A stretch of 64,000 bases of DNA from a virus (Duplodnaviria; Caudoviricetes): the IMG/VR virus record IMGVR_UViG_3300021411_000005, positions 11,909 to 75,908 of that record; one strand, written 5' to 3'. Below are positions 1-63,847 of this stretch, one piece after another. Within the stretch, counting starts at the first letter, position 1; every line of letters starts with the position of its first letter. The notes under the pieces were generated by a model. It ran no database searches. It was given only the letters and a program-made list of their open reading frames with translations, and had not been told where the DNA came from. The position numbers and the translations under genes are program-made.

Positions 1-998
1 ACGGCGGCAAAGGACAGGGTGTCCGCGATCTCCCCGAAGGACTGCTGGAACTTCTCCGGGTCGCCGACCACGGCGCAGAAGTCGCGCCGGGACCGGCCGT
101 CGATGATGACCGTCTTGACCGCTTCGGTCTTCCCGGCGCCGGGCACCCCGGTGACCAGGGTGTGAGGCAGTGCGCGCGGGTTCTCCGCGTCGTCGTCCCC
201 CACCACCCAGATGGCCATGTAGGAGCCGTCCGACCGGCCGCCGAAGACCAGCGCGCCGTCCGCGATGGAGGCGCCCGCCAGGGACGGCCCCGTCCAGTGC
301 AGCGTCCTGGCAGAACTCTCCTTCGGCTCGAACGCCAGGAGCACCTGGTCCGCGCGGCCGGGGACAGCCGTCACGGACACTTCGTTCGGGTCCATGCCGA
401 CCGCGCTGGCAATCCGGTCCTTGTCGTTCTGGACGTCCGAAGCCGTGCCCTCACCCGGCTTGAGCTGGACCTTTGCCTCCACCCGGGTAGGGCTCTCCTT
501 CACCTTCTTCGTACGCGCCCCGGCCAGTGCGGACACCCGCTGGAACAGCGGGTCGCGGTGTCCCTGGGCCTTGTCCTCTTCGTGGTGCGGGGACATCGAC
601 GCGTGCCGGATGTTCCAGGCCAGGGACAGGACAACGGACCCGTAGCCCCAGGTGACAGCCATCATGTGGTCCAGCGGACCGGTGGCCGACGCCAGCGCGA
701 ACCAGCCGGTCACCGCTCCGCAGAAGGTCGTGGCCAGCGCCCGGGTGTGCTCATGACGGCGCGACCAGGTCAGGTGTGTGTAGCCGGTCAGGACGACCGC
801 TCCGGCGCCGGTCAGTACCGTCATGACCGGGTCGTCGCTCAACTGCCAGTTGGCCAGCAGCGCTGCGGGCATGGCGGAGCCCGTGATGCCCCAGGGGACC
901 AGGTGCGGGAGCAGCCGGGAACCGGCCAGCTCCGCCACACCCAGACGCTTGGTACGAACGTTCGACCTGCCCTTTTCCTTGCTGCTCACCGTGGTCAC
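1..998 (-). CDS. traB: FtsK/SpoIIIE-family conjugative DNA translocase (TraB-like), 3' end truncated by window edge
   Basis: Not in ORF track; read manually from GTG at 998 overlapping the upstream TGA (GTGA). N-terminal hydrophobic helices (HLVPWGITG..., LSLAWNIRH) and Walker A HTLVTGVPGAGKT; last gene of an spd-tra order typical of Streptomyces plasmids. Confidence 0.8.
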   Translation of the reverse strand, partial: MTTVSSKEKGRSNVRTKRLGVAELAGSRLLPHLVPWGITGSAMPAALLANWQLSDDPVMTVLTGAGAVVLTGYTHLTWSRRHEHTRALATTFCGAVTGWFALASATGPLDHMMAVTWGYGSVVLSLAWNIRHASMSPHHEEDKAQGHRDPLFQRVSALAGARTKKVKESPTRVEAKVQLKPGEGTASDVQNDKDRIASAVGMDPNEVSVTAVPGRADQVLLAFEPKESSARTLHWTGPSLAGASIADGALVFGGRSDGSYMAIWVVGDDDAENPRALPHTLVTGVPGAGKTEAVKTVIIDGRSRRDFCAVVGDPEKFQQSFGEIADTLSFAA

Positions 999-1495
999 CC
1001 CCCTGTCGAAATCGTGAAGCGCTTCGGCTTCGCGGGCTTGTTCCGGCCGTCCATGATCTCCCCGAAGACCTGTTCGAACGTGGTCCAGGCGGCTACGAAA
1101 CCGGCCGCCGCGCTGCCGAAGTCCCCGGCGGAGCCGTTCAGCTTCTTCGTCACCCGGCGCATCTTGAACACCGCACCCCAGGACCGGTTCAGGTGGCCCA
1201 TCTCCTTCGCCCCGGCCTCCAGCTCCCCGGCTGCCAGTGCGGTGACCACAGCCAGGTAGTGGGCCAGCTTCCGGCCGGATTCACAGAACTGGTGGAGGTC
1301 GTGCTGGTCGGTCAGCTCGATGTCGTCCATCGCCTTGACCAGCGCGTCCAGCTTGCTGGAGCCGGACGACCGGCTGGAGCCTCCGCCGTCCGGGATGCCG
1401 TCCATCCGGAGTCCTCTCTCCCGGGCGTCCTTCTCATCCTTCGGACGGCTGCCCCGGGTGCTGTTCTCCCCCGGCTTGATCTTCGGTTCGGCCAT
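995..1495 (-). CDS. Plasmid transfer protein, TraA-like
   Basis: 166 aa, ATG preceded by AAGGAGGA; lies between the DUF2637-like gene and traB with overlapping stop/start. Confidence 0.55.
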   Translation of the reverse strand: MAEPKIKPGENSTRGSRPKDEKDARERGLRMDGIPDGGGSSRSSGSSKLDALVKAMDDIELTDQHDLHQFCESGRKLAHYLAVVTALAAGELEAGAKEMGHLNRSWGAVFKMRRVTKKLNGSAGDFGSAAAGFVAAWTTFEQVFGEIMDGRNKPAKPKRFTISTGG

Positions 1496-1509
1496 GGTCC
1501 TGTCCTCCT

Positions 1510-2370
1510 TCACGCTGACTGAGCCAGAGCGCTGCGCGCCCGGCGGATGCTGGTGTTGATCGTGTTCGGCTTGGTGTCCTCACCGAACTCCGTCCGGACC
1601 ATGTCCTTCAGGACGCTGTCCGGGGTGTCCTCACTGCGGGACAGGATGTCCTCCACGAAGGACTTCATCGAGCCCCCGGCAACGGTGCGGACGCGCGGCG
1701 CCGGGACAGTGTCCCGGGACACGGCCGGTACCGGCGGGACAGCGGCCGGGGACACCGCGGCGGGGACAGGGACAGCCGGAGGCAGGACGGGCGGGACGGG
1801 GACAGCGGGACCGGCGTCCTCTGTGACAGCCGGGCTGTCCTGCGGGACATCCTCCGTGGCGCTGTCCCGGGACAGGACACGGGACACGGCGGTGAGGACA
1901 GCCGGGGACGCGGCCAGGTGGAGCAGGTGGCCGAAGACCAGGGCGGGGACACAGGACACGGTGACCATCAGGGTCTGCCGGTAGGTCCAGCCGTCCCCGG
2001 GCTCCCAGCCGGAGCTGTAGAGATGCGCGACCGGCTGAGCGGCCATGGCCGCGGTGATGGACAGGACGGCGCCTACGACGGCCGTGCGCTTGCCCGGGGC
2101 GCCCTTGTCGCGCTTGGTGGCCACGACGGCCGCCACACCCGCGTACATCGTCAGGACGGCGGGCATGCCCCAGGCCAGTTCCTTGTTCCAACCGGCCAGG
2201 TGCGCCAGGTAATGCTCTCCCGGCGCGCACATCACCAGGACGATGACAGCGACGGCCGGGCGGACCCAGTCCTGGATCCAGGACACCCAGCGGACGCTGT
2301 CCTGGGGGATGTCCTTGTCCTTGCGGGTGTCCTTGGTGTCCCGGTTCTTACGGGACAGTCGGTTCTTCAT
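1510..2370 (-). CDS. DUF2637/Spd-like membrane protein with C-terminal helical (HTH-like) domain
   Basis: About four hydrophobic segments (APGEHYLAHLAGW...), a V/P/A-rich linker and a C-terminal helical domain (SMKSFVEDIL...NTINTSIRRAR); first gene of the transfer operon. Confidence 0.7.
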   Translation of the reverse strand: MKNRLSRKNRDTKDTRKDKDIPQDSVRWVSWIQDWVRPAVAVIVLVMCAPGEHYLAHLAGWNKELAWGMPAVLTMYAGVAAVVATKRDKGAPGKRTAVVGAVLSITAAMAAQPVAHLYSSGWEPGDGWTYRQTLMVTVSCVPALVFGHLLHLAASPAVLTAVSRVLSRDSATEDVPQDSPAVTEDAGPAVPVPPVLPPAVPVPAAVSPAAVPPVPAVSRDTVPAPRVRTVAGGSMKSFVEDILSRSEDTPDSVLKDMVRTEFGEDTKPNTINTSIRRARSALAQSA

Positions 2371-2477
2371 GGTGTCCTCCGTATCCGGGACAGGATTTAA
2401 TTAAGTTGTCCCATCTAAAGGGACAGCGCCCGGACTGTCAAGGACAGCCGGGCGCCGGATACGGAGGACAGGGACAG
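2371..2477 (-). promoter_or_regulatory. Probable promoter/operator region of the spd-tra operon
   Basis: AT-rich core TTTAATTAA flanked by inverted GGGACA...TGTCCC in the only intergenic gap upstream of the transfer genes. Confidence 0.5.
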
Positions 2478-2831
2478 TCAGTCCCGTGGATGGATCTTCA
2501 GTGTGTCCGGGTCCGCTTCTTCTGTCCCCCAGTCCCTGTCCCGCAGGACGGGGACACCGCGGAAGGACACGGACTGTCCTGCGGGACTGTCCTCCTCCGC
2601 GATCCAGGACACCGCGTCCTCCGACAGCCCGTCCCGCAGTCCCGGGTTGTCCCGGGCCAGTGTTGTCACCATGGAGGACAGCCGGGACGCGGCCAGCTCC
2701 GCAGCCGCCCGGAGACCGGCGAAGGATGTCACCAGGCTGTTGACCGCTTCCGCCGTCCGGCGCAGCCGCGCTTCTTCGGCGGCCTTCAGTGCGTCCGGGT
2801 CAACGGTCCAGCGGTGGACCATGGGGTCCAT
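2478..2831 (-). CDS. Hypothetical protein (117 aa)
   Basis: ATG overlaps upstream TGA (TGATG); MDPMVHRWTVDP... Confidence 0.6.
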   Translation of the reverse strand: MDPMVHRWTVDPDALKAAEEARLRRTAEAVNSLVTSFAGLRAAAELAASRLSSMVTTLARDNPGLRDGLSEDAVSWIAEEDSPAGQSVSFRGVPVLRDRDWGTEEADPDTLKIHPRD

Positions 2832-3082
2832 CAGATCCTCACCCCGTGCGGCATCTCGGTGTAGACGAAGGACGCCACGTCGGCCGTATCCGGATTGATG
2901 TCCCCGTGCCGGGACATGAAGGACAGGACCACCCGGAGCACCTGTCCCGGCTTGTCCTTCATGTCCATTCCAGCTTCCGATGCCTGGTGTCCCTGGGCCG
3001 TGGTCACGCTGCCGTCCGGGTTGTTGATCACCACGGTGTAGACGTAGATGTTCCGGTCGTCGTAGAACGGTCCCGCTTCCAT
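2831..3082 (-). CDS. Hypothetical protein (83 aa)
   Basis: ORF track; RBS upstream; translational coupling with the next gene. Confidence 0.6.
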   Translation of the reverse strand: MEAGPFYDDRNIYVYTVVINNPDGSVTTAQGHQASEAGMDMKDKPGQVLRVVLSFMSRHGDINPDTADVASFVYTEMPHGVRI

Positions 3083-19626: not shown

Positions 19627-19815
19627 ATGAATGACACTCTGATCACCCGGAGGGAAGCGGCCGACAGGGCATCTGTCGGCCTGCGGACCGTGGACCGGTG
19701 GCTGGCCGAAGGACGGCTGACCCGGCACAAGGACGGTCTGGGCCGTGTGACGATCAGTCCCCTGGAGCTGGACGAACTGACGACCCCCAGGCCCGTCAGT
19801 GCCACCGGCCGGTAG
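19627..19815 (+). CDS. MerR/excisionase-like HTH DNA-binding protein
   Basis: LITRREAADRASVGLRTVDRWLAEGRL. Confidence 0.8.
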   Translation: MNDTLITRREAADRASVGLRTVDRWLAEGRLTRHKDGLGRVTISPLELDELTTPRPVSATGR

Positions 19816-19837: not shown

Positions 19838-20311
19838 ATGGCTGCGCGCATCAAGGCCATTGAGACCCAGTACGCGGGGTGCCGGTTCCGGTCCCGCCTG
19901 GAGGCCCGCTGGGCCGTGTTCTGGGACACCCTGGAGTGGCCCTGGGAGTACGAGCCGCAGGGGTTCGCCCTGCCGTCGGGCAACTACCTGCCGGACTTCC
20001 GGGTCCACGTCCCGGACAGCTCGAACGGGCCCGTGTGGTTCGAGGTGAAGCCGCCCGGCGTGCCGGACGACCCGCGGTGGCCGGAGCTGGCCGCCATGAC
20101 GGACGCAATGATCATCGTGGCCAAGGGCATGCACCGGTCGGGGGATTCGTGCAGGAGCGCGCACACCGCTGACGCGTACAGCGGGACGGCGGTCGGCAGG
20201 GACCTCAAGCTGTGGATGCACAGCCCTGCGGCGGCCTGGGACGCGGCGTCCGGCGCCCGGTTCGAGCACGGGGAATCGCCGGTCACCCGGCGCGGCCGGA
20301 GGAAGCGGTGA
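19838..20311 (+). CDS. PD-(D/E)xK-like nuclease
   Basis: FRSRLEARWAVFWD...WEYEPQGF...YLPDF...WFEVKP. Confidence 0.7.
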   Translation: MAARIKAIETQYAGCRFRSRLEARWAVFWDTLEWPWEYEPQGFALPSGNYLPDFRVHVPDSSNGPVWFEVKPPGVPDDPRWPELAAMTDAMIIVAKGMHRSGDSCRSAHTADAYSGTAVGRDLKLWMHSPAAAWDAASGARFEHGESPVTRRGRRKR

Positions 20312-23300
20312 CGGCCGCCGCGGTGACGGAGGTCTCCCCCGTCCATGCGGAGGAACTGGCATCGAGCTGCATCGGGGCGGACCACATCGCAGCGCGCGGC
20401 TACCGCACGCTGTACGGCAGCGACGACGACCGGGCGGAACTGAAGACCCTGCGGATCCCGCGGTTCATGTGGCGCCACGACACGGCGTTCCCCGGGCTGC
20501 TCATCCCGGAGTACCGGGTGACCGGGGAGCTGATCGGCTACCAGTGGAAGCCCGCGGTCCCGCAGCGGAACTCCGACGGGAAGCCGGTGAAGTACGCCTC
20601 CCAGTCGGGGACGCCGAACCACCTGGACATCCCGCCGCTGGTCAGCGACAAGGTAAGGGATCCCAGCAATCCGCTGTGGATCACCGAAGGCGTGAAGAAG
20701 GCGGACTGCCTGGCCACGCTGGAGAAGGCCGTCATCACACTGACCGGCGTCTACAACTGGCGGAGCAAGCTGGGCACGCTGGGGGACTGGGAGGACATCC
20801 CGATCCAGGGGCGGACCGTCGTGGTCTGTTTCGACTCCGACGCGCGCAGCAAGCGGCCGGTCATGCTGGCCATGCGCCGTCTGGGGCTCTGGCTCCAGTC
20901 CAAGGGCGCCGCGGAGGTCCGGTACCTGATCGTCCCCTCCGAGGTTCCGCAGGGGGAGGACCGGGCCGCCGTTGAGGTCAAGGGCGTGGACGACTACTTC
21001 CACGCCGGGGGAACCCTGGAGGATCTGGGGGGCCACGCGGCGCGGGAGCTGCCGGTGGACGGCGCACGGGACGCGGCCTTCTCGGACGCGGTCCTGGCCG
21101 ACACGGTGTGCAGTGAGGAGCTGGAGGGCCAGTACAAGTGGTCGTCCGGCCTGGGCTGGATGGTCTGGACGGGGAAGTTCTGGAAGAGCGCGGAAGACGT
21201 CACGGTGACCGAAGCCGTACGGCTGTGGGTCCTGTCCCAGTTCCACCGGGTGATCGACCTCCAGGGCGCGGACCCGAACCGGGACATGCGCTCCCAGATC
21301 GATGGCTGGCGCAGTGCGCTGGCCGCGTCCAAGCTCAGCAGCCTGGTCAAGCTCAGCCGGGGAATCCTGGAGTGCGACGCATCGGATTTCGACTCCGATG
21401 CGGACGTCCTGAACTGCCCGAACGGCATTCTGGACCTGCGCACGGGCGTGCTGACGACGCACGACCCGGACCGGCTGATGACGAAGATGGCCGGGGTGGA
21501 CTACGTCAAGGGCGCGCAGCACCCGGACTGGGACACTGCGCTGACCGCCCTGCCCGCCGATGTCCTGGAGTGGTTCCAGCTCCGCATCGGACAGGCCCTG
21601 ACCGGCCACCTGACCCCGGACGACCTGGCCGTCATCTGCCAGGGAGGCGGGGAGAACGGCAAGTCCACGGTCTTCAACGCGCTGACCACGGCCGCGGGGA
21701 AGTACCACATCACCGTGGCGGACCGGGCGATGCTGGGCAACGCCAGCGACAACCACCCCACGGAGATGACCGATTTCCTGGGTGCACGGTTCGCCATTCT
21801 GGAGGAGACCCCGGAGTCCCGGCGGCTGGACACCAACCGGCTGAAGAAGCTGGTCGGCACCCGGGAGATCACCGCCCGGAAGATCCGGCAGAACGACATC
21901 ACGTTCACCACGACACACAGCCTCTTCGTGAACACGAACTTCCGCCCGGTGGTGGATGAGACCGACCACGGGACCTGGAGGCGCCTGGCGCTGCTCATCT
22001 TCCCGTACACGTACCGGAAGACCCCGGCGGAGGTTCTGGGGCCCCAGGACCGCCTGGGGGACGGCGCGCTGCGCCAGCGGATAGAGACCCAGCCGGTCAT
22101 GGAGGCCGCACTGGCCTGGGCCGTCCAGGGCGCTCAGCGCTGGTACGACATGGAGCGGATCATGCCGGACATGCCGGACCGGGTGCGGGGGGACACCCTG
22201 GGGTGGCGGAAGGAGAGTGACCCGGTGATGACCTTCGTGGACGAAGAGATCGTGTTCGATCCGGACGCTTTCATCATCGGCTCAGAACTACGGAGCGTGT
22301 TCAACCACAAGATCACGGAGAAGGGCGGCCGGGAGTGGGGCGACAAGACGTTCAGCGCCCGTTTCGGGGGCCATGACCTGGTGGTTCAGCACGGTGTGGA
22401 GTACAAGGTCACCAAAAACGGAACGGGCCTCTCCACCCGCCTGCGGAACCCCTCTTCGGCGTCCACCGTACGAGCCTGGCGAGGCGTCCGATTCTCCGAT
22501 CCGGACGCCGAAACAGGGGGTGGGGCTGAGAACGACCCATTTGGAAAATCCCCGGTCGGAGGGGGTAACCAAGATCAGGTTACGGCAGTTACATCTGCGC
22601 CGATAAGCACAAATCCTGGATCTCGCATAGAGGTTAACCGCCAACGTGTAACTGCTGTAACCGATCTTGAAATCACCCTTCCCAGCGATCAAGGAAATGA
22701 GGAAGAATTGGAGAACTCGATCATGCTTCCCGATGATCCTTTCGGTGAGGCGGAGGACCCCCCGGCCGCTGTGTGGGAGGGCCCGCTGCCGGACCGGGTG
22801 ACATTCGACCTGGAGACCGCTTCGGCCGACGAAATGTTTACTTACGGTGACGGTTTCGTCCGGCTGGCGGGCTTCGCGGCCGACGACGGAGAACCGCGCA
22901 CCGGGGTGGATATCGGGCAGCTTGTCTGGCTGCTGGAGCGCGTCCCGTCGGCCAGCCACAACGGCATGCAGTTCGACGGTCCGGCGCTGGCCTACCACCA
23001 CGGGATGGACTGGGAGAAGTTCAGCGCGCTGGCGGAGGACACGGAGATCAAGGCCCGGCTGGCCGACCCCCCGCGGTCCAAGGAAACCGGCGGGTCGGAC
23101 GACAAGTACGACCTGGACCACACCGCGGAGAAGCTGGGGGTCCGGGGCAAGACCGACAGCGCGAAGCGGCTGAAGAACAAGTTCGGCGGCTGGGACCGGA
23201 TCCCGCAGGACGACCCGGAGTACCACGCCTACCTGTCGGGTGACGTGGAGGCCGGGCGCGCGGTGGACCGCCTGCTCCCCGTCACGGAGTACGGGCGCCG

Positions 23301-24513
23301 GGAGCACCGGCTGGCCGGGCTGGCCGGGCGGATGACGCTGAACGGGTGCCGGGTGGACGTCCCGCTGCTGAAGGAGCGGATCCGGGAGGGGCAGGAGAAG
23401 AAGGCTTCCGCCCTGGAGGCGCTCAGCGGTACCTACAGCCTCCCGCTGGGCCGTGAGGTGATGCGGGGCCGCGGGAAGGCGAAGGCGCCCGCCTGGGAGC
23501 CGTTCAGCTCCCCGCTGGCCACTACGGAGGGCGGCGCCTGGCTGGCCGACCTCTGGAAGCAGTTCGGCGTGGTCCGTCCCCCGCGGACTCCGAACGGCAA
23601 CCTGTCCACCGCCGCGGAGCGGCTGAAGGAGGTGGCGGAGAACAGGCACTGCCCGCCGGAGCTGAAGACCGCGCTGGAGCTGATGGGGATCGTCACCACC
23701 ACCAGGACCGTCTACCAGACCGTGGAGAAGTACCTGACCGTGGAGGGGCGCGTCCATCCGACGGTCAGCATGCGGCAGGCGTCCGGCCGGTGGTCCGTCA
23801 CCAAGCCGGGTCTGACCGTCTTCGGCAAGCGGGACGGCCGCCACATCGAACGGGACGTGATCGTCCCGGAGGAAGGCCACCTCCTGGTGACCTGTGACCT
23901 GGCCCAGGTGGACATGCGCGCCGTGGCCGCGCACTGCCAGGACGAGAACTACATGCAGTTGTTCGAGCCCGGCCGGGACGCGCACGCGGAGATTGCGGCG
24001 CTGATCGGGGTGTCCCGGCAGGACGCCAAGCCGCTGGGCCACGGCTACAACTACGGCATGGGCCGTGCCCGGATGAAGCGGGACGGCCACGATCCGGAAC
24101 TGGTGGACGCGTTTTTCGACGGCATGGAGAGCCAGTTCCCGGTCAAGATGGCGTGGACCAAGGACGTCATTGCCCGGGGCACCGCCGGGGAGCTGCTGGA
24201 CAACGGGTTCGGCCGGATGATGCGCTGCGACCCGCGGTCGGCCTACACCGTGGCGCCCGCGCTGATGGGCCAGGGCGGCGCCCGGGACATCACCTGTGAA
24301 GTGCTGCTCCGGCTGATCGACCGGCACCCGGAGTACCAGCCCTACCTGCGCGCCTACGTCCACGATGAGTTCGTCTTCTCCGTACCGGAGGACCGGGCGG
24401 AGGAGATCGGGGCGGAGATCAAGGACGCGTTCACCTGGGAGTGGAAGGGTGTGCCGATCCTGGCCGACCTGTCCGGCCCGGGTCCGTCCTGGGGTGCGGT
24501 GAGCGCGAAGTGA
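20308..24513 (+). CDS. Trifunctional replication protein: DUF3854-type TOPRIM primase + P4/D5-type SF3 helicase + family A DNA polymerase (with 3'-5' exonuclease)
   Basis: Single 1401-aa ORF: WITEGVKKAD, CFDSD, KGVDD; GGENGKST, AILEE, FVNTNFRP; FDLET, HNGMQFD, YLSGDV; CDLAQVDMR, RQDAKPLGHGYNYG, YVHDE. Confidence 0.9.
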   Translation: MTAAAVTEVSPVHAEELASSCIGADHIAARGYRTLYGSDDDRAELKTLRIPRFMWRHDTAFPGLLIPEYRVTGELIGYQWKPAVPQRNSDGKPVKYASQSGTPNHLDIPPLVSDKVRDPSNPLWITEGVKKADCLATLEKAVITLTGVYNWRSKLGTLGDWEDIPIQGRTVVVCFDSDARSKRPVMLAMRRLGLWLQSKGAAEVRYLIVPSEVPQGEDRAAVEVKGVDDYFHAGGTLEDLGGHAARELPVDGARDAAFSDAVLADTVCSEELEGQYKWSSGLGWMVWTGKFWKSAEDVTVTEAVRLWVLSQFHRVIDLQGADPNRDMRSQIDGWRSALAASKLSSLVKLSRGILECDASDFDSDADVLNCPNGILDLRTGVLTTHDPDRLMTKMAGVDYVKGAQHPDWDTALTALPADVLEWFQLRIGQALTGHLTPDDLAVICQGGGENGKSTVFNALTTAAGKYHITVADRAMLGNASDNHPTEMTDFLGARFAILEETPESRRLDTNRLKKLVGTREITARKIRQNDITFTTTHSLFVNTNFRPVVDETDHGTWRRLALLIFPYTYRKTPAEVLGPQDRLGDGALRQRIETQPVMEAALAWAVQGAQRWYDMERIMPDMPDRVRGDTLGWRKESDPVMTFVDEEIVFDPDAFIIGSELRSVFNHKITEKGGREWGDKTFSARFGGHDLVVQHGVEYKVTKNGTGLSTRLRNPSSASTVRAWRGVRFSDPDAETGGGAENDPFGKSPVGGGNQDQVTAVTSAPISTNPGSRIEVNRQRVTAVTDLEITLPSDQGNEEELENSIMLPDDPFGEAEDPPAAVWEGPLPDRVTFDLETASADEMFTYGDGFVRLAGFAADDGEPRTGVDIGQLVWLLERVPSASHNGMQFDGPALAYHHGMDWEKFSALAEDTEIKARLADPPRSKETGGSDDKYDLDHTAEKLGVRGKTDSAKRLKNKFGGWDRIPQDDPEYHAYLSGDVEAGRAVDRLLPVTEYGRREHRLAGLAGRMTLNGCRVDVPLLKERIREGQEKKASALEALSGTYSLPLGREVMRGRGKAKAPAWEPFSSPLATTEGGAWLADLWKQFGVVRPPRTPNGNLSTAAERLKEVAENRHCPPELKTALELMGIVTTTRTVYQTVEKYLTVEGRVHPTVSMRQASGRWSVTKPGLTVFGKRDGRHIERDVIVPEEGHLLVTCDLAQVDMRAVAAHCQDENYMQLFEPGRDAHAEIAALIGVSRQDAKPLGHGYNYGMGRARMKRDGHDPELVDAFFDGMESQFPVKMAWTKDVIARGTAGELLDNGFGRMMRCDPRSAYTVAPALMGQGGARDITCEVLLRLIDRHPEYQPYLRAYVHDEFVFSVPEDRAEEIGAEIKDAFTWEWKGVPILADLSGPGPSWGAVSAK
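22578..22662. repeat. 16-bp inverted repeat in an AT-richer patch inside the replication gene (candidate origin)
   Basis: GGTTACGGCAGTTACA (22578-22593) and TGTAACTGCTGTAACC (22647-22662) match 15/16 as reverse complements; 53-nt spacer; extra GGTAACC and GGTTAACC nearby. Confidence 0.75.
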
Positions 24514-27393: not shown

Positions 27394-28153
<760 letters not shown>

Positions 28154-31965: not shown

Positions 31966-33375
31966 ATGGCGACGGACGTACAGCGGATAGCAGCCGGAGC
32001 CGCACGGCACCTGGCCCGCGGCATGGCCTCCACCCGCTGGACGCCGCTCCCCCACCAGGTGCCCCCGCCCGGGGAGTGGTACGGCTGGCTGCTCATGGCC
32101 GGGCGCGGCGCGGGCAAGACGGACGCCTGTGCGGAGTACATGATCCAGCACGTGAAGGGCCCGCCGTGCCTCCCCGGTCCCAGTCCGCACTGGATGGGCA
32201 TTATTGCCCCGACGCTCGGTGACGCGGCCACGTCGTGCTTCTCCGGTCCGTCGGGGATCCGGGCGCACGATCCGTCGGCGCAGATGGTCACCACCAAGGG
32301 CGGTACGGTCGTCCGCTGGCCGAACGGCAGTGAAGCCAAGCTGTTCGGTGCGCACACGGAGGAGGAGACCGACCGGCTGCGCTCCGGCGGCAACCGGTGC
32401 CTGATGTGGCTGGAGGAGCTGGCCGCCTGGCGCTACCTGGACGAAGCCTGGGCCCAGATGCGGTTCGGCCTCCGTGTAGGTCCGCACCCGCACTGGATCG
32501 GCTCCACCACACCGAAGACCCGGCAGTTGATCCGGCGCCTGCATGAGGGCAAGGTCCGCAACACGGTGCTGACCAGGGGGTCCATGTACGACAACCCCCA
32601 CCTTTCGGAGGAAGTGCGCATAGCGCTGGAGGAGGAGTACGCCGGTACGCCGCTGGGGCGCCAGGAGCTGATGGGTCTCCTGATCGAGGAAGACGAAAAC
32701 GCGCTCTGGAGCCGGAAGGTGGTGGACGCAGGCCGGATCGACCCGCGGAACCTGCCGGACCTGGGCCGGATCTCCGTCGGCGTGGACCCGTCCGGCGGTG
32801 CCGGTGAGCAGGGGATCATCGTGGTGGGCAAGTCCAAGCTGATGCTGCCCCCGGTGGTCATGCCCCCGGACATCCTGCCGGAGGGCAGTCCGGCGCAGCC
32901 GATGAACGCCCGGCACCGGGGATTCGTGCTGGCCGACCGGACCGTCCACCTCAAGCCGGAGGGCTGGGGCCGTGCCGTGGTGAAGGCCGCGGTGGAGTGG
33001 GATGCTGACGAGATCTTCGTGGAGGTCAACTACGGCGGGGACATGTGCATCTCCACCGTGGGCTCCGTGCTGGAGTCCGAAGGGCTGCACATCCCGATCC
33101 GGCCGGTGCGCGCCACGCGGGGCAAGGCCATCCGCGCGCAGCCGGTCAGTGCGCTGTCGTACCAGGGTGCGTGGTCGCACGCCGGGGAGTTCCCGGAGCT
33201 GGAGGACCAGATGACCACCTGGACCCCGGAGTCCGACTGGAGCCCGGACCGGCTGGACGGATCCGTGTGGAACGCTCACGGGCTGCGCCTGGTGGGCCCC
33301 ACGATCCGCGGCAAGGGGCAATTCGGTGGTTCAATGGCATCAAAGCAAATCGCTGCCCCGGGAAGAGTCCGATGA
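31966..33375 (+). CDS. terL: Terminase large subunit
   Basis: AGRGAGKT, WLEELA, STTPK, VGVDPSG, SPDRLD. Confidence 0.92.
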   Translation: MATDVQRIAAGAARHLARGMASTRWTPLPHQVPPPGEWYGWLLMAGRGAGKTDACAEYMIQHVKGPPCLPGPSPHWMGIIAPTLGDAATSCFSGPSGIRAHDPSAQMVTTKGGTVVRWPNGSEAKLFGAHTEEETDRLRSGGNRCLMWLEELAAWRYLDEAWAQMRFGLRVGPHPHWIGSTTPKTRQLIRRLHEGKVRNTVLTRGSMYDNPHLSEEVRIALEEEYAGTPLGRQELMGLLIEEDENALWSRKVVDAGRIDPRNLPDLGRISVGVDPSGGAGEQGIIVVGKSKLMLPPVVMPPDILPEGSPAQPMNARHRGFVLADRTVHLKPEGWGRAVVKAAVEWDADEIFVEVNYGGDMCISTVGSVLESEGLHIPIRPVRATRGKAIRAQPVSALSYQGAWSHAGEFPELEDQMTTWTPESDWSPDRLDGSVWNAHGLRLVGPTIRGKGQFGGSMASKQIAAPGRVR

Positions 33376-36521: not shown

Positions 36522-38303
36522 ATGCCGTGGTGGAACACATTCGGGATCGGCCGCCGTCCGGAACCTCCGGCCGCTGACCCGGTCCCGGCCGCGCTGACCG
36601 CGGCAGCGGCGCCCGTGAAGAAGCCGCAGTCCCAGTTCCTCCAGCACACCCAGGCGTGGCAGTCCGAAGCATGGGACTTCTACGATGCGTCGGGTGAGAT
36701 GAATTACGCCATCACCTGGCTGGCCAACATGATGAGCCAGGTCCGGCTCCGCGCGGCGCGGCTGTCCCCGGAACTGGATGAGCCGGAGATCCTGAACGAC
36801 GGCCCGGCCGCGGAGATTGTGGCCGCGCTGGCGGGCGGTGTCGGCGGCCAGTCGCAGATCATGCGCGGCCTGTCCTCCCAGCTCTCCGTTCCCGGGGACT
36901 GCTACCTGATCGGGGAGCAGAAGGGCCAGGCGTACACCTGGTCGGTCCGCAGCACGGACGAAGTACGTGTCCAGGGCACGGATTTCCAGGTGGTCTCCGA
37001 CCGTACGCCGACGATCGAATGGTCCAACCTGCCGAAGGACGCCATCCCGATCCGGGTCTGGCGTCCTCATGCCCGCTGGTACCACATCGCCGACTCCCCG
37101 GCGCGCTCCGCGCTGCCGATCCTGCGGGAGCTGGACCTGGTCAACCGGCACATCACCGCTCAGTACCTGTCCCGGCTGGCGTCCGCCGGAATCGTGATCT
37201 TCCCCGAAGAGGTGACCTTCCCGGTCCGGGAGGAGTTCGAGGATGCCAACGATCCGTTCATGGCGGAATGGATCGAGATAGCGGCCGAAGCCATCCGCAC
37301 ACCCGGCACCGCGTCCGCCGTGATTCCGATCCCGATCCGGGTACCTGCGGAGTTCGTGGACAAGGTCAAGCACATCGACTTCACGCTGAAGATTGATGAG
37401 AAGATCATCGAGAAGCGGGAGTCCGCGGTCAACCGGCTGGCCACCAAGCTGGACATCCCCACCGAAGTGCTGACCGGCATCGGCCGGGTGAACCACTGGA
37501 CCGCCTGGCAGCTCGATGAAGGCGCGCTGAAGAACCACATTGCCCCGCTGGCGGAGCTGATCTGCCACTGCCTCACGGTCGGCTACCTGGCGCCCCGGAT
37601 GGAGGCCAGCGGGGAGAAGAACCTGGAGGAGTTTGTCGTCTGGTACGACATGTCCGAGCTGGCCATGCGGCCGGACCAGTCGCAGAACGCCAAGGACGCG
37701 TACGACCGGATGGAGCTGTCCGGCGAAGCGCTGCGCCGGGAGTCCGGGTTCGGTGAGGACGACAAGCCGAAGCCTGACGAACTGGAGACCATCGCTCTCA
37801 AGAGCATCATCCGGAACTTCTCCGGGGACGCTGCGGCAGCCCTGGACGCTCTCCTGGGCAAAACCGTGCTCCAGGTGGCCGCTGCGGCACCGGCAGCCAC
37901 CGGTACCGGCAGTGCGCCGGAGCAGCCCCCGCCAGGGACCGGTGAGGACCCGCCGTCCGTGCCGAAGACGCAGGGCGCGCCACCGGACGCGGCGGCCGCC
38001 TCGGACCGGATTCTCCAGCAGACCAAGGCGGTGCACGCCATCCGGTTCAGCATGACCAGACCGGGTGAGCTGCTCCATCCGCCGGTCTGCCGGACGCACG
38101 CCTACTCCTGCCCGTTCACCCATGCGGCCTGGAACATCGGCGTACCGGCGCTGACCACTGGAACGTACGAATGCCGTCTGGACGCGTTCGGCCAGCTCCT
38201 GATCGGCCGGAACGCCCCGGAGCTGGACACGGAGTCGTGGACGGTCACCCAGGGCTTCATTGCGACCCGGAAGGGGCAGCTCAATGGCCGTGCCAAGGTC
38301 TGA
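36522..38303 (+). CDS. Portal protein
   Basis: Follows terL; actinophage portal-like motifs (EAWDFYD, VWRPH...ADSP, SRLASAG, VNHWTAW). Confidence 0.85.
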   Translation: MPWWNTFGIGRRPEPPAADPVPAALTAAAAPVKKPQSQFLQHTQAWQSEAWDFYDASGEMNYAITWLANMMSQVRLRAARLSPELDEPEILNDGPAAEIVAALAGGVGGQSQIMRGLSSQLSVPGDCYLIGEQKGQAYTWSVRSTDEVRVQGTDFQVVSDRTPTIEWSNLPKDAIPIRVWRPHARWYHIADSPARSALPILRELDLVNRHITAQYLSRLASAGIVIFPEEVTFPVREEFEDANDPFMAEWIEIAAEAIRTPGTASAVIPIPIRVPAEFVDKVKHIDFTLKIDEKIIEKRESAVNRLATKLDIPTEVLTGIGRVNHWTAWQLDEGALKNHIAPLAELICHCLTVGYLAPRMEASGEKNLEEFVVWYDMSELAMRPDQSQNAKDAYDRMELSGEALRRESGFGEDDKPKPDELETIALKSIIRNFSGDAAAALDALLGKTVLQVAAAAPAATGTGSAPEQPPPGTGEDPPSVPKTQGAPPDAAAASDRILQQTKAVHAIRFSMTRPGELLHPPVCRTHAYSCPFTHAAWNIGVPALTTGTYECRLDAFGQLLIGRNAPELDTESWTVTQGFIATRKGQLNGRAKV

Positions 38304-42026: not shown

Positions 42027-43814
42027 GTGCCCGAACAGATCGAGAAGTCCGACAAGTTCCCCGCTCCGGACGACCTCACCACGGTCTCCGACGCGGATCT
42101 CCAGGCTCTGGAGACGGAGGGCGTGGCCGAATTCGATCGGGTTCACGGTCTCCAGGAGTACGCTCCGGCCGATGTGGAGTACGCGCTCCGCCTGAGCACC
42201 GACCTGGACCGGATCAAGGCGGAGCTGTCCGCCCGGAAGGTCCGTGCCGAAACGGCAGCCGCGCAGGAGAAGGCGCGGGCGGACCGCCAGATGGCGGAAC
42301 TCCAGGAGCAGGTCCACGGCCCGGCCGCCGGTACGCCGGAAGCGCTGGCCGCGGAGGCCCAGATGGACGCCTCCCGGGTGGAACAGATCGTGGCCGCCGC
42401 ATCCAAGGGCACGGCGGACGCACTGCTCCGGGTGATCGGCGACCGGACCGGCGGCAACACACTCAGCCGTGTCACCCGTACCGGTGTCGCGTCGCTCGGT
42501 GACACCGCAGCGGTCGCCCCGAAGCCGAAGGTCCCGGCCGCGCGGCTGGCCATCACCGCCAGCGCCAACGGACAGGACATCCCTTCGCTGGACGCGCTGG
42601 CGAAGCTCTTCATCGAGCGGGCCCAGTCCGTACCGACCTCCCAGGCCGGGCGCCAGGCGGCGCGCTACCCGGTGGCGAAGATCCGCAACGACTTCGCGCA
42701 CACCGTGGACGAACGCACCAACCCGGGCGAGATCGAGGAACTGTGGCGGGAGATGGTCACCCCGGAGAGCGCCGGGGCTCTGGTGGCCGGTGGCGGCTGG
42801 TGTGCCCCGTCGGAGATCATGTACCAGTTCTTCAACGTGGCCGACATGGACGGCGCGATCGACCTTCCGACCGTCGGCGTGACCCGCGGCGGTATCCGGT
42901 TCCCGGTCTCCCCCGCCATCGGTGACGTGTTCTTCCAGTCCGCAGGCTCCAACCCGGCCTCCGGTTTCGGCGGCTTCGCGTTCCCCTTCAGCAACGCGTC
43001 CGACCCGTGGCTGTGGACCGAGACGGACGACATCCTGACCGTCACCGGCTCCGTCAACAAGCCGACTCTGCGCGTGCCCTGCGCCAGCTTCAACGAAGCC
43101 AGGCTGGAGGCGTACGGCATCACGGTCACGGCGGGCAACCTGACCGACAACGCGTACCCCGAAGCCACCCAGAACTTCATCCGGCTCCTGCGCATGGCCT
43201 ACGCGCACGCGATCAACGCGCGGCTGATCGGGCTCATGGACACCGCGGCGGGCGGCGCCAACACCATCGGTGCCATCACCACCGACCCGGCCGCCCCCCG
43301 CCTGTTCAATGCGGTGGAGCTGGCTGCGGTGGACTACCGCGCCCGGTACGCCATGAACACCAAGGCCGTGCTGGAAGTCGTCATGCCGTACTGGGTCAAG
43401 AGCGTGATCCGCTCCGACCTGGCGTACAAGACCGGCATCGACTCCACGGAGCTGTACGCCGTGCTGGACGCGCAGATTGACGCGTTCTTCACCGCGCGCA
43501 ACGTCCGGGTCCAGTGGGTCAACGACTATCAGGTCCGCGGAGCTTCCCAGCCCGGCAACGCCACGGTCCAGCTTGTCTGGCCGACCACGGTCAACTTCCT
43601 GGTCTACGCGGCCGGGACGTTCCTCCACGGGACCGGCCTCCAGCTTGACCTGGGTGTCGTCCGTGACTCCGTCCTGAACGCGGAGAACGACTTCACCGCG
43701 GCATGGGCGGAAGAGGCACACCTGATCGCCATGGTGGGTCACGCGGCGCGCAAGTACACGGTGGCCTTCCAGGTCAACGGCGCCAGCGGTGGCGGTACGG
43801 CTGCCCGTGTCTGA
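42027..43814 (+). CDS. Major capsid protein with N-terminal scaffold region (hexamer-type)
   Basis: Coiled-coil N-terminus, LVAGGGWCAPSE motif, HK97-like size and position. Confidence 0.85.
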   Translation: MPEQIEKSDKFPAPDDLTTVSDADLQALETEGVAEFDRVHGLQEYAPADVEYALRLSTDLDRIKAELSARKVRAETAAAQEKARADRQMAELQEQVHGPAAGTPEALAAEAQMDASRVEQIVAAASKGTADALLRVIGDRTGGNTLSRVTRTGVASLGDTAAVAPKPKVPAARLAITASANGQDIPSLDALAKLFIERAQSVPTSQAGRQAARYPVAKIRNDFAHTVDERTNPGEIEELWREMVTPESAGALVAGGGWCAPSEIMYQFFNVADMDGAIDLPTVGVTRGGIRFPVSPAIGDVFFQSAGSNPASGFGGFAFPFSNASDPWLWTETDDILTVTGSVNKPTLRVPCASFNEARLEAYGITVTAGNLTDNAYPEATQNFIRLLRMAYAHAINARLIGLMDTAAGGANTIGAITTDPAAPRLFNAVELAAVDYRARYAMNTKAVLEVVMPYWVKSVIRSDLAYKTGIDSTELYAVLDAQIDAFFTARNVRVQWVNDYQVRGASQPGNATVQLVWPTTVNFLVYAAGTFLHGTGLQLDLGVVRDSVLNAENDFTAAWAEEAHLIAMVGHAARKYTVAFQVNGASGGGTAARV

Positions 43815-50752: not shown

Positions 50753-50982
50753 ACGTCGTCTATTACGCCATGCTCCAGCGCCTGGACGCCCCGGAAGGCA
50801 AGGACCCGGAGCAGGCGCGGAGAGAGTTCGACAACAGCCTTGGTGTGTCCGGCTGGAGGACGCCAGGGGCCGGGTCCGAACCGGCCGAAGAGCGTGAGCC
50901 CGGAGCGCCGCTGTGGTGGCAGGGCGAAGAGGAGGCCAGCGCGGCCTTCCTGATGTCGCAGGGGGTAGTCCTGAATGGCTGA
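50630..50982 (+). CDS. Tail assembly chaperone extension (-1 frame)
   Basis: Overlapping -1 frame ORF lacking a clear RBS: ...WHELDGDYTGRGIDLLSLPLDRFLNVVY... Confidence 0.6.
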
Positions 50983-53900: not shown

Positions 53901-54376
53901 TCCAGAAGCTCTGGAACGGGGAGAGCGGCTGGCGCTCGGACGCGCTGAACAAGTCGTCCGGCGCGTACGGCATCCCGCAGTCCCTCCCGGCCAGCAAGAT
54001 GGCCAGCTCCGGGTCCGACTGGCGCAGCAACCCGGCAACCCAGATCGACTGGGGACTCCGGTACATCAAGTCCCGGTACGGGTCTCCGGGTAACGCCTTC
54101 GCGTCCTGGGCCGACCGGAACCCGCACTGGTACGACAACGGCGGCTGGCTGCCCCCTGGGCTGTCTCTGACGATGAACGGGACCGGACGGCCGGAGCGCA
54201 TCCGTACGGCGTCCCAGGAGGCTGCTCTGGGCCGGGGCGGGGCCGCCACGGTCAACCTGACTGTGGTCAACCAGGGGGTCATCGGTTCCAAGGCGGAGAC
54301 CCTGAACTGGCTCACCAAGGCTCTGGACGAACTGGGGCGGGCTCACCGGATACCCACCTCTGTAAAGAACGGGTGA
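50975..54376 (+). CDS. Tape measure protein with C-terminal lytic transglycosylase
   Basis: 1133 aa helical; W-spaced repeats; LWNGESGW...GAYGIPQSLP...NPATQIDWGLRYIKSRYG. Confidence 0.92.
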   Translation: MAEEVIGRGLIEILPDFRKFGKELAASMRTARSQLNGSAAGLRASAGTIFTSMAKVGKGVSVIGVGVAVASVKMAGDFQAETAVLQTAAGETAANLGTVRKGIMDISKGTGTGLKNLTDGMYTIEKAGFRGADGLKVLKAAAQGAKEENADLADVTNAMTSVMASYHLGTDKSVQVMNALKTAAGEGKITMEEFSGALSTVLPIASANKISLAQVGGAIATLTQHGTSAREATQELAATIRSLAAPNNVAIREMARFGITSTDVSQNLGKNGLTGTIDILTKAITAKMGPSGKILLSAFEGTKESAKDAQIELKTMPKSLQDVAKSYLAGKISLEDWNQNMKSTPVNQQPMLRNFKTLVDRSHGFSRELKAGGPAAKTYTDALKKMSGGAIGLNTILQLSGESSAGLEERVKKVGESYGNTSKDVEGWKVTQGLFNTQLSIMKQNIQVLMVQLGTKLIPILMGMVHWFSENQKYVIILAGAIAGVLTLSVVAFAAKTVISFGKAGLSVAKFGLSVAKLGVNLVRGLASASAAASSSTGLAGTLGGMIRKGLSPSTYSSAFATLRIRSMYAIDAIKSGFRSAGTAVAGFASTVKTAAVSTATTAWSGITTAVSAVGRGMKTAAIATRDFAKAQYESAVAGAKAGIIYVAQKIKTIAVAAATGIATAAQWLWNVAMDANPIALIIIGIAALIAIVVVIATKTTWFQTIWKITWKAITTAFNATFNFIKDHWKLLLAILTGPIGIAVLIVTKYWKQIRDGASAALSWVKGHWPLLLSIITGPIGAATIYIIRHWKQISDGAKNAVNNVTTWFRGLPGKISGAVGKLSGLLYRSGKNTISGLLSGAREGLSAVGTFAKSVKDKVVGAIKSVFGIHSPSTVMAGLGGHMMSGLFKGLLSGKNVLNSVVKSIFHNPLDAAKALIKNGVNVTGFLGKNAGKLASQLFGDLGFGGSGPPAGVNQTLGKRMMEAMGWGSDQWPALQKLWNGESGWRSDALNKSSGAYGIPQSLPASKMASSGSDWRSNPATQIDWGLRYIKSRYGSPGNAFASWADRNPHWYDNGGWLPPGLSLTMNGTGRPERIRTASQEAALGRGGAATVNLTVVNQGVIGSKAETLNWLTKALDELGRAHRIPTSVKNG

Positions 54377-59007: not shown

Positions 59008-59280
59008 ATGGCCACACAGTCTGAAGCATTCCAGCGCGCTTACGGAGTAACAAATCTGTCGTTTTACGGGGTGTCCCTTCTCATAGGGCCTACCTGGTAT
59101 CTCAACAGTCTCAGCGAAGATCTGTCCCTGAGCCGGGAACTGACGGCCACCACTGCGGCGACTGCCAAAACGGAAGCGGAGGAGTATTTGTCCGGGACGC
59201 TGGGATTCACCCAGGTGGGCCGATGGGCAGAAGACCCCGGCCAGGAGTTCACATCCGTCTGGGTGAACATCCCGATCTGA
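59008..59280 (+). CDS. Hypothetical protein (partner of fibre B)
   Basis: AAAGGAG RBS; lower GC. Confidence 0.6.
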   Translation: MATQSEAFQRAYGVTNLSFYGVSLLIGPTWYLNSLSEDLSLSRELTATTAATAKTEAEEYLSGTLGFTQVGRWAEDPGQEFTSVWVNIPI

Positions 59281-59294
59281 GAGGAACGGTCAGC

Positions 59295-63788: not shown

Positions 63789-63847
63789 GGCTCCTCCGTT
63801 TCCTCTTTCCTGGTGGCGGCCGGGCGGTCTCCCGCCCGGCCGGTGGA

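What the first reader, a model, noticed from the sequence alone, without database searches (positions are those of the whole stretch)
1..2477. Complete virion machinery plus a Streptomyces-type TraB conjugation module: candidate conjugative phage-plasmid
Seen: an spd-like/traA-like/FtsK-traB operon with its own AT-rich promoter on the same element as full head, tail and lysin genes, and no integrase in the window. Known: TraB alone mediates dsDNA transfer of Streptomyces plasmids, and plasmid-phage pZL12 is a precedent for combining the two lifestyles. Inference: this element can spread both as virions and by hyphal conjugation and intramycelial spreading.
Basis: partly seen in the sequence, partly recalled or inferred. 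Interest (0 to 1): 0.8.

Follow-up and report, generated by a model that had tools for sequence, protein, structure and literature searches.

The report
Soil actinophage with built-in TraB DNA-transfer module
A complete 76-kb tailed phage from soil carries, as an old inherited part of its genome, the one-motor system (TraB, TraA, docking repeats, membrane helpers) that Streptomyces plasmids use to push double-stranded DNA between hyphae. It may therefore spread without virus particles, an idea with one laboratory precedent (pZL12) that is untested for this lineage.

Summary
W3-2370 (minus strand) is a translationally coupled operon: a 286-aa four-helix membrane protein, a TraA-like protein and TraB. 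Its AT-rich promoter region lies at W2371-2477. TraB is whole in the 75.9-kb record (668 aa, intact Walker A/B, FtsK-motor fold, C-terminal winged helix). A 151-bp clt-like cluster of TGTCAG(A) repeats and two small membrane proteins follow it.

The record has TerL, portal, capsid, tape measure and lysin. It has no integrase, ParA, ParB or GntR repressor. Its ends overlap by 140 nt.

The module is not an insertion. At least 33 IMG/VR contigs (54-99 kb) carry this TraB clade, and 22 of 22 near-complete ones also carry the capsid homologue. TraB and capsid co-diverge (Mantel r 0.91). Phage TraBs form one branch against plasmid TraBs.

Only a derived subclade has integrase and ParA. That subclade is the one found as separate about 92-99 kb contigs or as a plasmid (pS1D4-14.2) in Streptomyces isolates. 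"Phage-plasmid" is therefore unproven for this element.

New detail: dense arrays of short repeats (here GGGACA) sit in and before the membrane-protein gene. Their sequence tracks that protein's C-terminal domain type, not TraB.

pZL12 is only a functional precedent; it is unrelated in sequence. This scan has found phage-borne TraB modules many times on other DNA.

The parts
3..998 (-). traB, first 332 codons. The gene continues 1,008 nt beyond the window start to G10900, giving 668 aa in all.
   Evidence: NCBIfam NF041214 plasmid_TraB: E 3.5e-116, residues 27-659 on profile positions 4-634 of 639. Walker A G289-K290-T291 and Walker B E389-E390 are invariant in 23 homologues. The AF2 model's best PDB match is the FtsK motor domain, E 4.8e-13.
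995..1513 (-). traA-like gene (172 aa). It overlaps traB by 4 nt.
   Evidence: NCBIfam NF041213 plasmid_TraA: E 2.9e-10, 40 bits, cut-off 80. BLASTP to TraA of a S. longwoodensis plasmid: E 4e-4. It sits directly upstream of traB, as in pSN22, and is detectable at that place in most relatives.
1510..2370 (-). 286-aa membrane protein: four long helices, a Pro-rich linker and a C-terminal three-helix domain. It is a positional and architectural analogue of SpdB2, not a DUF2637 member.
   Evidence: AF2 model: helices 27-58, 63-86, 94-119, 127-154; a disordered stretch 171-234; a C-terminal bundle 235-285 with pLDDT above 90. No Pfam or NCBIfam hit. DUF2637 HMM: no hit. hhalign: probability 0.1%. 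146 homologues were found, many on contigs of the TraB-bearing phage size range.
1638..1951 (.). Dense array of 12 GGGACA copies on the + strand (TGTCCC on the coding strand), written through the linker-coding part of the membrane-protein gene.
   Evidence: This is the strongest local k-mer cluster in the 75.9-kb record. The motif sits in two reading frames and uses rare GCT/ACT/CCT codons: GCT is 5 of 16 Ala codons here against 8.4% genome-wide. Relatives have 25-68 copies of the same or a lineage-specific hexamer at the same place.
2337..2993 (.). Looser field of GGGACA/TGTCCC copies (about 16, on both strands) over the promoter region and the two small upstream ORFs.
   Evidence: In relatives the matching stretch is a non-coding tandem array (L022 3713-3935, L031 4152-4306, L011 4239-4619).
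2371..2477 (-). Promoter/operator region of the transfer operon: TTGACA-18 nt-TAGATG, an AT-rich patch and a GGAGGA ribosome-binding site. It is flanked by a perfect 16-nt inverted repeat (W2373-2388 and W2455-2470).
   Evidence: Sequence read. Lowest-GC 40-mer of W1-4000. Inverted repeat: 2 matches against 0 expected. The promoter was not called by the consensus scanner, so it remains inferred.
20212..24513 (+). Fused primase-helicase-family A polymerase (1433 aa), the element's own replicase.
   Evidence: Pfam DUF3854, D5_N, DUF5906 and DNA_pol_A. 48% identical to the 'P4 family primase' of pS1D4-14.2.
31966..33375 (+). Terminase large subunit.
   Evidence: Pfam Terminase_6N E 6e-14 and Terminase_6C E 3e-7.
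36522..38303 (+). Portal protein.
   Evidence: phrog_776 portal, E 2.3e-128.
42027..43814 (+). Major capsid protein.
   Evidence: phrog_777 major head protein, E 1.3e-110. 53-73% identical homologues in 24 TraB-bearing viral records.
50975..54376 (+). Tape measure protein.
   Evidence: Pfam PhageMin_Tail, E 1e-20.
59223..60260 (+). Lysin (Rv2525c-like glycoside hydrolase).
   Evidence: Pfam PF08924, E 1.4e-23.

Best explanation
The window is most of a complete, closed tailed-phage genome of about 75.8 kb from a soil actinomycete, most likely Streptomyces or a close relative. Its leftward early arm contains a full Streptomyces-plasmid-type double-stranded-DNA transfer module.

Shown by computation:
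- The operon is membrane protein, TraA-like, TraB.
- TraB has the three-part build of plasmid TraB: N-terminal membrane helices, an FtsK-like motor with intact ATPase motifs, and a C-terminal winged helix.
- A cluster of 8-bp-type TGTCAG(A) repeats lies directly 3' of traB, where plasmid clt sites lie. Two small membrane proteins follow.
- The module has co-diverged with the capsid gene throughout a lineage of 75-99 kb phages.

Inferred mechanism:
- TraB hexamers dock on the TGTCAG(A) repeats through the winged helix. They pump the unprocessed phage genome through the hyphal wall or cross-walls into neighbouring hyphae or compartments.
- The four-helix membrane protein binds the GGGACA arrays in and before its own gene through its C-terminal three-helix domain. 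This either holds the genome at the membrane beside the pump or autoregulates the operon.
- The phage would thus have a virion-free route of spread in a mycelial host in addition to infection by particles.

Whether this operates from a plasmid-prophage state or during productive infection is open for this element.
For: TraB identity and integrity:
-.

Operon structure:
- 4-nt gene overlaps, promoter region and ribosome-binding site.

clt-like site:
- 8 of the record's 20 TGTCAG copies lie in the 151 bp after traB (about 0.04 expected). Relatives have 4-8 copies of TGTCAGA, TGTCACGG, CGTGATCA or CTGATCAG at the same place.
- This matches the published definition of clt as direct 8-bp repeats recognised by the cognate TraB (PMC4447253).
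- The TGATCA-type repeats occur only with the 'TP.W.Y..L.LL' variant of the TraB winged helix.

Same element and ancient:
- 22 of 22 near-complete viral records with this TraB hold the capsid homologue.
- The module has a fixed position next to a GT-A gene.
- Mantel r 0.91, 0 of 5000 permutations as high.
- Phage TraBs form one branch with SH-aLRT 100.

Synteny with plasmids:
- Membrane protein, traA, traB is the order in classical plasmids.

Repeat arrays are a DNA-level feature tied to the membrane protein:
-.

Relatives exist as separate replicons in Streptomyces:
-.

Literature:
- pZL12's transfer locus (PMC3583192).
Against: - No experiment exists, and no RNA data were available.
- TraB scores 389 bits against the curated 800-bit equivalog cut-off, so it is a distant subfamily whose activity is assumed by homology.
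- No kil-kor (GntR TraR/KorA) repressor is present, unlike classical plasmids.
- There is no ParA, ParB, integrase or recognisable immunity repressor, so a stable donor state is not evident.
- The downstream 338-aa and 632-aa genes have no known family.
- No cultured phage in 50,697 records has this TraB, so nothing is known of the biology of any member.
- The membrane protein's DNA-binding role rests on co-variation and a predicted three-helix bundle. Foldseek gave no match.
Confidence: 0.6

Rival explanations
1. The element is a virulent (non-temperate) phage. The TraB/membrane-protein module works only during infection. It moves replicating phage DNA across cross-walls into neighbouring hyphal compartments or prespores, like a movement protein, rather than mediating plasmid-style conjugation from a stable donor.
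For: - This element and the basal lineages of the family lack integrase, ParA and a GntR kor repressor.
- On the TraB tree the integrase+ParA members are a derived tip clade.
- All members found in isolate genomes or plasmid collections belong to that derived clade. No integrase-less member is seen in 185,579 species genomes or in PLSDB.
- The operon lies in the leftward early arm with DNA-metabolism genes.
- Thoma et al. 2015 already raised spreading of phage DNA by Spd homologues (PMC4447253).
Against: - Absence of recognisable lysogeny genes does not prove virulence. Many small Streptomyces plasmids also lack par genes.
- The hosts of the integrase-less lineages may simply be uncultured.
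- No data exist on infection spread.
Confidence: 0.25
2. The module serves another purpose than moving the phage's own genome. Examples: mobilising host chromosomal or plasmid DNA, excluding superinfecting elements, or anchoring and partitioning the phage genome at the membrane, with the repeat arrays acting as a centromere.
For: - The large GGGACA arrays track a membrane-anchored putative DNA-binding protein rather than TraB. This is also what a membrane-tethering partition system would look like.
- ParA/ParB are absent.
Against: - The module has the full traA-traB-clt-small-membrane-protein layout of transfer modules.
- The clt-like repeats are on the phage's own DNA.
- TraB's translocase motifs are invariant.
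Confidence: 0.1
3. The transfer genes are a decaying remnant of a plasmid or AICE that once fused with the phage and have no function now.
For: HMM scores fall below the curated cut-offs for TraB and TraA.
Against: - The reading frames are intact and full length in about 100 sequence clusters at 38-63% identity, with invariant catalytic residues.
- TraB co-diverges with the capsid.
- Phage TraBs have a single origin.
- The position is conserved.
Confidence: 0.03

Closest known systems
TraB-clt-Spd transfer modules of Streptomyces plasmids and AICEs (pSVH1, pSN22, pIJ101, pJV1, pWTY27)
   Same: - The gene order membrane protein, traA, traB.
- TraB has membrane, FtsK-motor and winged-helix parts.
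- A short direct-repeat cluster lies next to traB (PMC4447253, PMC3583192).
- Small hydrophobic genes follow.
   Different: - The module is carried by a complete tailed phage, not a plasmid.
- TraB is a separate clade, at most 33% identical to plasmid TraBs.
- There is no GntR kil-kor repressor.
- The membrane protein is not DUF2637. It has a swappable C-terminal domain with matching arrays of 25-68 hexamers, which is not described for plasmids in the papers read.
Streptomyces plasmid-phage pZL12 / phage ZL12 (GQ919031; Zhong et al. 2010, as cited in PMC3583192, PMC4487206, PMC7157519)
   Same: A roughly 90-kb actinomycete element with full virion genes and an FtsK/SpoIIIE-type transfer gene. 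It is the experimental precedent for combining the phage and conjugative lifestyles.
   Different: - It is unrelated in sequence. Only TerL (36% over 205 aa) and a few small hits are shared, and TraB finds nothing.
- pZL12 has ParA, ParB and an integrase/recombinase; this element has none.
- pZL12's Tra (pZL12.71c) is not of the NCBIfam plasmid_TraB type by tblastn.
Plasmid pS1D4-14.2 of Streptomyces sp. S1D4-14 (NZ_CP041606.1, 98.8 kb) and the 92-96 kb contigs of S. africanus NRRL B-24243 and Streptomyces sp. NRRL S-455
   Same: - Same phage lineage: syntenic head, tail, replicase, glycosylation and traA-traB genes.
- Capsid 57% and TraB 42% identical.
   Different: - They carry a tyrosine integrase and ParA, and are 17-23 kb larger.
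- pS1D4-14.2 uses a different array motif (GAAAGC) and a different C-terminal domain on the upstream protein.
- In the deposited record it is annotated only as a plasmid with hypothetical proteins at these genes.
SpdB2 of pSVH1
   Same: [quoted passage not shown] Homologues are noted on actinophages (PMC4447253).
   Different: - No detectable sequence or profile similarity.
- SpdB2 binds DNA non-specifically. Here a sequence-specific role is inferred from motif/domain co-variation.

Membership tests
Streptomyces plasmid transfer protein TraB (NCBIfam NF041214) | Full-length HMM match over the curated equivalog cut-off | tested here: not met
   389 bits, E 3.5e-116, end to end, but the cut-off is 800 bits. 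This is a homologue, not an equivalog.
Streptomyces plasmid transfer protein TraB (NCBIfam NF041214) | FtsK/SpoIIIE-like motor domain with intact Walker A and B motifs | tested here: met
   GAGKT and DIEEA are invariant in 23 sequences. Foldseek top hits are FtsK motor domains 6t8o/2ius, E about 5e-13. The profile's best PDB hit is FtsK.
Streptomyces plasmid transfer protein TraB (NCBIfam NF041214) | N-terminal membrane part and C-terminal winged-helix DNA-recognition domain | tested here: met
   AF2 model: four N-terminal helices 21-132; C-terminal H592-608, H622-626, H630-642 followed by a beta hairpin 646-657. Prediction only.
Streptomyces plasmid transfer protein TraB (NCBIfam NF041214) | Cognate clt with direct 8-bp repeats on the same replicon | tested here: inconclusive
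   A TGTCAG(A) cluster (6 direct and 2 inverted copies in 151 bp) lies directly after traB, with lineage-specific equivalents in relatives. Binding is not testable here.
Streptomyces plasmid transfer protein TraB (NCBIfam NF041214) | Mediates contact-dependent dsDNA transfer | not testable with these tools
   Needs mating and pock assays.
Phage-plasmid (extrachromosomal prophage) | Complete virion gene set | tested here: met
   TerL, portal, capsid, tape measure and lysin.
Phage-plasmid (extrachromosomal prophage) | Plasmid partition or plasmid-type replication genes | tested here: not met
   PF01656 (ParA) and PF02195 (ParB) give no hit in six frames of the whole record. The only replicase is a phage-type primase-helicase-PolA fusion.
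Phage-plasmid (extrachromosomal prophage) | Maintained as a separate replicon in a lysogen | not testable with these tools
   This record comes from a soil metagenome. Only distant kin (TraB 40-43% identical) are separate contigs or plasmids in isolates.
pZL12-like plasmid-phages | Sequence relatedness of structural and transfer genes | tested here: not met
   tblastn of all 81 ORFs against pZL12: only TerL (36%) and a few weak hits; TraB finds nothing.
DUF2637 / SpdB2-type spread proteins | Match to PF10935 or to a plasmid DUF2637 protein | tested here: not met
   No hit at E<=10. hhalign probability 0.1%. Only position and the four-helix build are shared.
Plasmid transfer protein TraA (NCBIfam NF041213) | HMM match over the cut-off and position directly upstream of traB | tested here: inconclusive
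   40.4 bits, E 2.9e-10, cut-off 80. The position and the 4-nt overlap with traB are met.

The most novel reading that the evidence does not exclude
This integrase-less, par-less, kor-less lineage is a virulent phage. It uses an inherited TraB pump, a clt site and a sequence-specific membrane-anchored DNA-binding protein to move its replicating genome through hyphal cross-walls and between hyphae. That would be a bacterial counterpart of viral movement proteins. The plasmid-prophage lifestyle (integrase plus ParA) would be a later addition in one subclade.
Probability: 0.25. Interest if true: 0.85.

Novelty: new variant of a known kind. Interest (0 to 1): 0.55.

Why it matters
Phages of mycelial bacteria face a host divided into compartments. 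A phage lineage that has kept a plasmid-type DNA pump for as long as it has kept its capsid suggests that virion-free, cell-to-cell spread is a regular part of actinophage biology. If so, it is not a curiosity of one plasmid-phage.

Surveys of phage-plasmids look for relaxases and type IV secretion (CONJscan; PMC7969092). They cannot see TraB-type transfer, so this class is invisible to them.

The co-varying pair of a membrane-anchored DNA-binding domain and repeat arrays, together with the separate clt-like site, give two concrete and cheap binding tests. Cultivable relatives exist in which transfer can be assayed (pS1D4-14.2, NRRL S-455, NRRL B-24243).

Tried and rejected
- DUF2637 identity of the 286-aa protein: rejected.
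- Kinship with pZL12: rejected.
- 'Transfer genes belong to an adjacent element': rejected.
- 'Translocase truncated beyond the window': rejected.
- GGGACA array as a mere by-product of a Pro/Val-rich peptide: rejected. The motif sits in two frames, uses rare codons, and is non-coding in relatives.
- GGGACA arrays as the TraB recognition site: disfavoured. L025 keeps the winged helix of L016 but has GAAAGC arrays.
- The consensus promoter scan found nothing in W1-3700.
- Pfam FtsK_SpoIIIE gives only a 14.9-bit P-loop hit.
- Foldseek of the membrane-protein model: no match at E<=0.001.
- tblastn of TraB against 50,697 phage records: no match. megablast of W1-8000 against phages: no match.
- Search for GntR, integrase, resolvase, ParA and ParB in the record: none.
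- Sequencing runs: no RNA holder listed. The only full holders are the probable source soil sample.
The contexts of the roughly 100 metagenomic TraB homologues were therefore checked only through IMG/VR and GTDB loci.
- The pZL12 paper itself (PMC2897331) is not held. Its content is cited second-hand.
Full report
**What the record is.**
The window is bases 11909-75908 of a single-contig IMG/VR virus record of 75,908 bp. I write W for window coordinates and G for record coordinates.
- The first and last 140 nt are the same apart from one mismatch. The genome is therefore closed or terminally redundant, with a unit of about 75.8 kb.
- IMG/VR lists the record as 'linear', and CheckV estimates 92% completeness.
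- The DNA is 68% G+C and comes from a soil metagenome.

**The observation.**
On the minus strand, three genes overlap one another by 4 nt:
- W1510-2370, 286 aa;
- W995-1513, 172 aa;
- a gene starting at W998 that leaves the window.

In the whole record the third gene is complete (G10900-12906, 668 aa).
- It matches NCBIfam plasmid_TraB over its full length (E 3.5e-116). The score of 389 bits is below the 800-bit equivalog cut-off.
- The 172-aa protein matches plasmid_TraA weakly (E 2.9e-10; BLASTP to a plasmid TraA E 4e-4).

The 107-nt spacer W2371-2477 has these features:
- the lowest-GC stretch of the first 4 kb;
- TTGACA-18 nt-TAGATG;
- a GGAGGA ribosome-binding site;
- a perfect 16-nt inverted repeat on either side.

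The promoter is plausible but not called by the consensus scanner.

Virion and lysis genes are real: TerL, portal, capsid, tape measure and lysin. Six-frame HMM searches of the whole record find no tyrosine or serine recombinase, ParA, ParB or GntR regulator.

**TraB is intact.**
- In an alignment of 23 homologues at 37-64% identity, Walker A (G-x-G-K-T), Walker B (D-I-E-E) and downstream Arg/Ser/Gln positions are invariant.
- The AlphaFold model (pLDDT 73.7) has four N-terminal helices, an alpha/beta motor and a C-terminal helix-helix-helix-hairpin domain.
- Its best structural matches are FtsK motor domains (E 4.8e-13), followed by the TcpA coupling protein.
- By sequence profile the best solved relative is also FtsK.

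**The module belongs to the phage and is old.**
- TraB has about 100 homologous 90%-identity clusters at 38-63% identity, many on contigs of 58-94 kb.
- A profile scan finds 33 IMG/VR contigs of 54-99 kb.
- Every one of the 22 that are at least 90% complete also encodes the capsid homologue at 53-73% identity, and ten have direct terminal repeats.
- The module sits at a fixed place, a few genes from a conserved GT-A glycosyltransferase, with traA-like directly before traB.
- Over 21 records, pairwise TraB identity tracks pairwise capsid identity: Mantel r 0.91, with none of 5000 permutations as high.
- In a maximum-likelihood tree, the 23 phage-borne TraBs are one side of a branch with SH-aLRT 100. 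On the other side are 11 TraBs from classical plasmids (pSN22, pFP4, a S. longwoodensis plasmid, an Amycolatopsis plasmid) and from chromosomal elements.

**Lifestyle.**
The closest annotated relative is plasmid pS1D4-14.2 (98.8 kb) of Streptomyces sp. S1D4-14.
- It is syntenic throughout, with capsid 57% and TraB 42% identical.
- It has portal, capsid, tape measure, ParA, ParB and a tyrosine integrase.

In one genome per species of GTDB, this TraB clade occurs in four Streptomyces isolates. In three the contig is about 92-96 kb, roughly the size of the whole element, and one of those has direct terminal repeats. The fourth contig is 54 kb. None lies on a large chromosomal contig. Ordinary TraBs (29-33% identical) do lie on large chromosomal contigs.

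Among 23 near-complete family members:
- nine have an integrase;
- five to nine have ParA.

On the TraB tree these form a derived tip clade. That clade also contains pS1D4-14.2 and the four isolate contigs, which are the only members found in isolate genomes or plasmid collections.

This element, its sister (77.8 kb, terminal repeats) and the other basal lineages have none of these genes. 'Phage-plasmid' is thus well supported for the derived subclade and unproven here. Absence of an integrase is confirmed, but so is absence of any recognisable plasmid maintenance or immunity function. Small Streptomyces plasmids also often lack par genes, so this does not exclude a plasmid state.

**A clt-like site.**
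The 151-bp spacer directly after traB (G10749-10899, just outside the window) holds eight of the record's twenty TGTCAG copies. Six are direct, mostly TGTCAGA/G, and two are inverted. About 0.04 would be expected by chance.

Relatives have four to eight copies of TGTCAGA, TGTCAGG, TGTCACGG, CGTGATCA or CTGATCAG at the same place.
- This fits the published description of clt as direct 8-bp repeats recognised by the cognate TraB (PMC4447253) and the repeat-built clt sites of pJV1 and pIJ101 (PMC3583192).
- The TGATCA-type repeats go with one distinct variant of the TraB winged helix. This is suggestive, but the numbers are few.

Two small membrane proteins (75 and 134 aa) follow, as spread genes do on plasmids.

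**A second, larger repeat system.**
- The word is GGGACA/TGTCCC. There are 28 copies in W1638-2993, about 20 per kb, against roughly one per kb elsewhere.
- The densest run (12 copies in 310 bp) lies inside the linker-coding part of the membrane-protein gene.
- It is a DNA-level feature. The hexamer sits in two reading frames, encodes different peptides and relies on rare GCT/ACT/CCT codons. In relatives much of the array is non-coding.
- Nearly every relative has 25-68 copies of a hexamer in the 3 kb before traB, enriched 5- to 40-fold over the rest of the locus. The word differs by lineage: GGGACA, CGGACA, AGGACA, TCCGGA, CGTCTC, GTTGCA, GAAAGC or CTGAGC.

The word does not follow TraB. L025 has the winged helix of L016 but GAAAGC instead of GGGACA. 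It follows the C-terminal domain of the membrane protein encoded before traA:
- 24 of 25 loci with the '..DS(I/L)xKAIxRAR' domain have NGGACA arrays;
- none of the six loci with other domain types does. These are three with an HTH_17-like domain, two with a second helix-turn-helix type and one with a third.

The model of the 286-aa protein shows four long membrane helices, a disordered Pro-rich linker and a confident three-helix C-terminal bundle. I infer a membrane-anchored, sequence-specific DNA-binding protein that either holds the genome at the membrane next to TraB or autoregulates the operon.

It occupies the place that DUF2637/SpdB2-type genes hold on plasmids. It shares SpdB2's four-helix, DNA-binding description (PMC4447253), but it is not a detectable member of that family.

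**Comparison with what is known.**
[quoted passage not shown] It has ParA, ParB and an integrase, and shares almost nothing with this element.
- Thoma et al. 2015 noted SpdB2 homologues on actinophages and suggested a role in spreading phage DNA (PMC4447253).
- Phage-plasmid surveys search only for relaxase and type IV conjugation genes and do not mention Streptomyces (PMC7969092).
- I found no paper describing this lineage. pS1D4-14.2 appears only in a genome announcement.
- This scan has reported phage-borne TraB modules many times on other DNA, including a 78-kb soil phage of the same family and a 99-kb circular phage-plasmid of Streptomyces.

**Verdict.**
The kind (an actinomycete phage with an FtsK-type transfer system) is known. 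This is a distinct lineage with a canonical traA-traB-clt layout, no lysogeny or kor genes, and a previously undescribed pairing of a membrane protein with repeat arrays. Function remains inferred.

Noticed in passing
window 2373-2388 and 2455-2470: A perfect 16-nt inverted repeat (TGTCCTCCGTATCCGG) brackets the promoter-like AT-rich patch. The arm nearer the gene contains the GGAGGA ribosome-binding site of the membrane-protein gene. In a read-through transcript the hairpin would hide that site.
   Followed up: partly
window 47287-47718: A tandem array with a 60/120-nt period (3.5-5 copies, about 70% matches) lies between the head and tail genes. It is presumably a repeated 20-residue unit of a structural protein.
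   Followed up: no
window 27521-28153 (+): A 210-aa protein with an Rpf-type transglycosylase domain (E 1.5e-35) plus LysM. This is a resuscitation-promoting-factor-like wall hydrolase, separate from the lysin at 59223-60260.
   Followed up: no
window 62880-63851 (-): A 323-aa protein matches phrog_6247 'DNA topoisomerase' (E 6e-107) but has no Pfam hit. It is absent from pS1D4-14.2.
   Followed up: no
L001 2596-4269 (-), i.e. record G2596-4269, outside the window: A 557-aa protein has collagen-like G-x-y runs followed by a long beta-helix-like C-terminal part. It is probably a tail fibre or depolymerase, encoded far from the tail module on the opposite strand.
   Followed up: no
L001 6943-9881 (-), record G6943-9881: Two large soluble proteins (632 and 338 aa) downstream of the transfer module have no Pfam or NCBIfam family. 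Only the nearest relative (L006) has homologues.
   Followed up: partly
record ends (G1-140 and G75769-75908): A 140-nt terminal direct repeat with one T/C mismatch at position 14. IMG/VR classes the record as linear, probably because of that mismatch.
   Followed up: yes
window 19642-19779 (+): A weak HTH_17 match (20 bits) lies at the divergent switch between the leftward and rightward arms, just before the replicase operon. It is a candidate early regulator.
   Followed up: no
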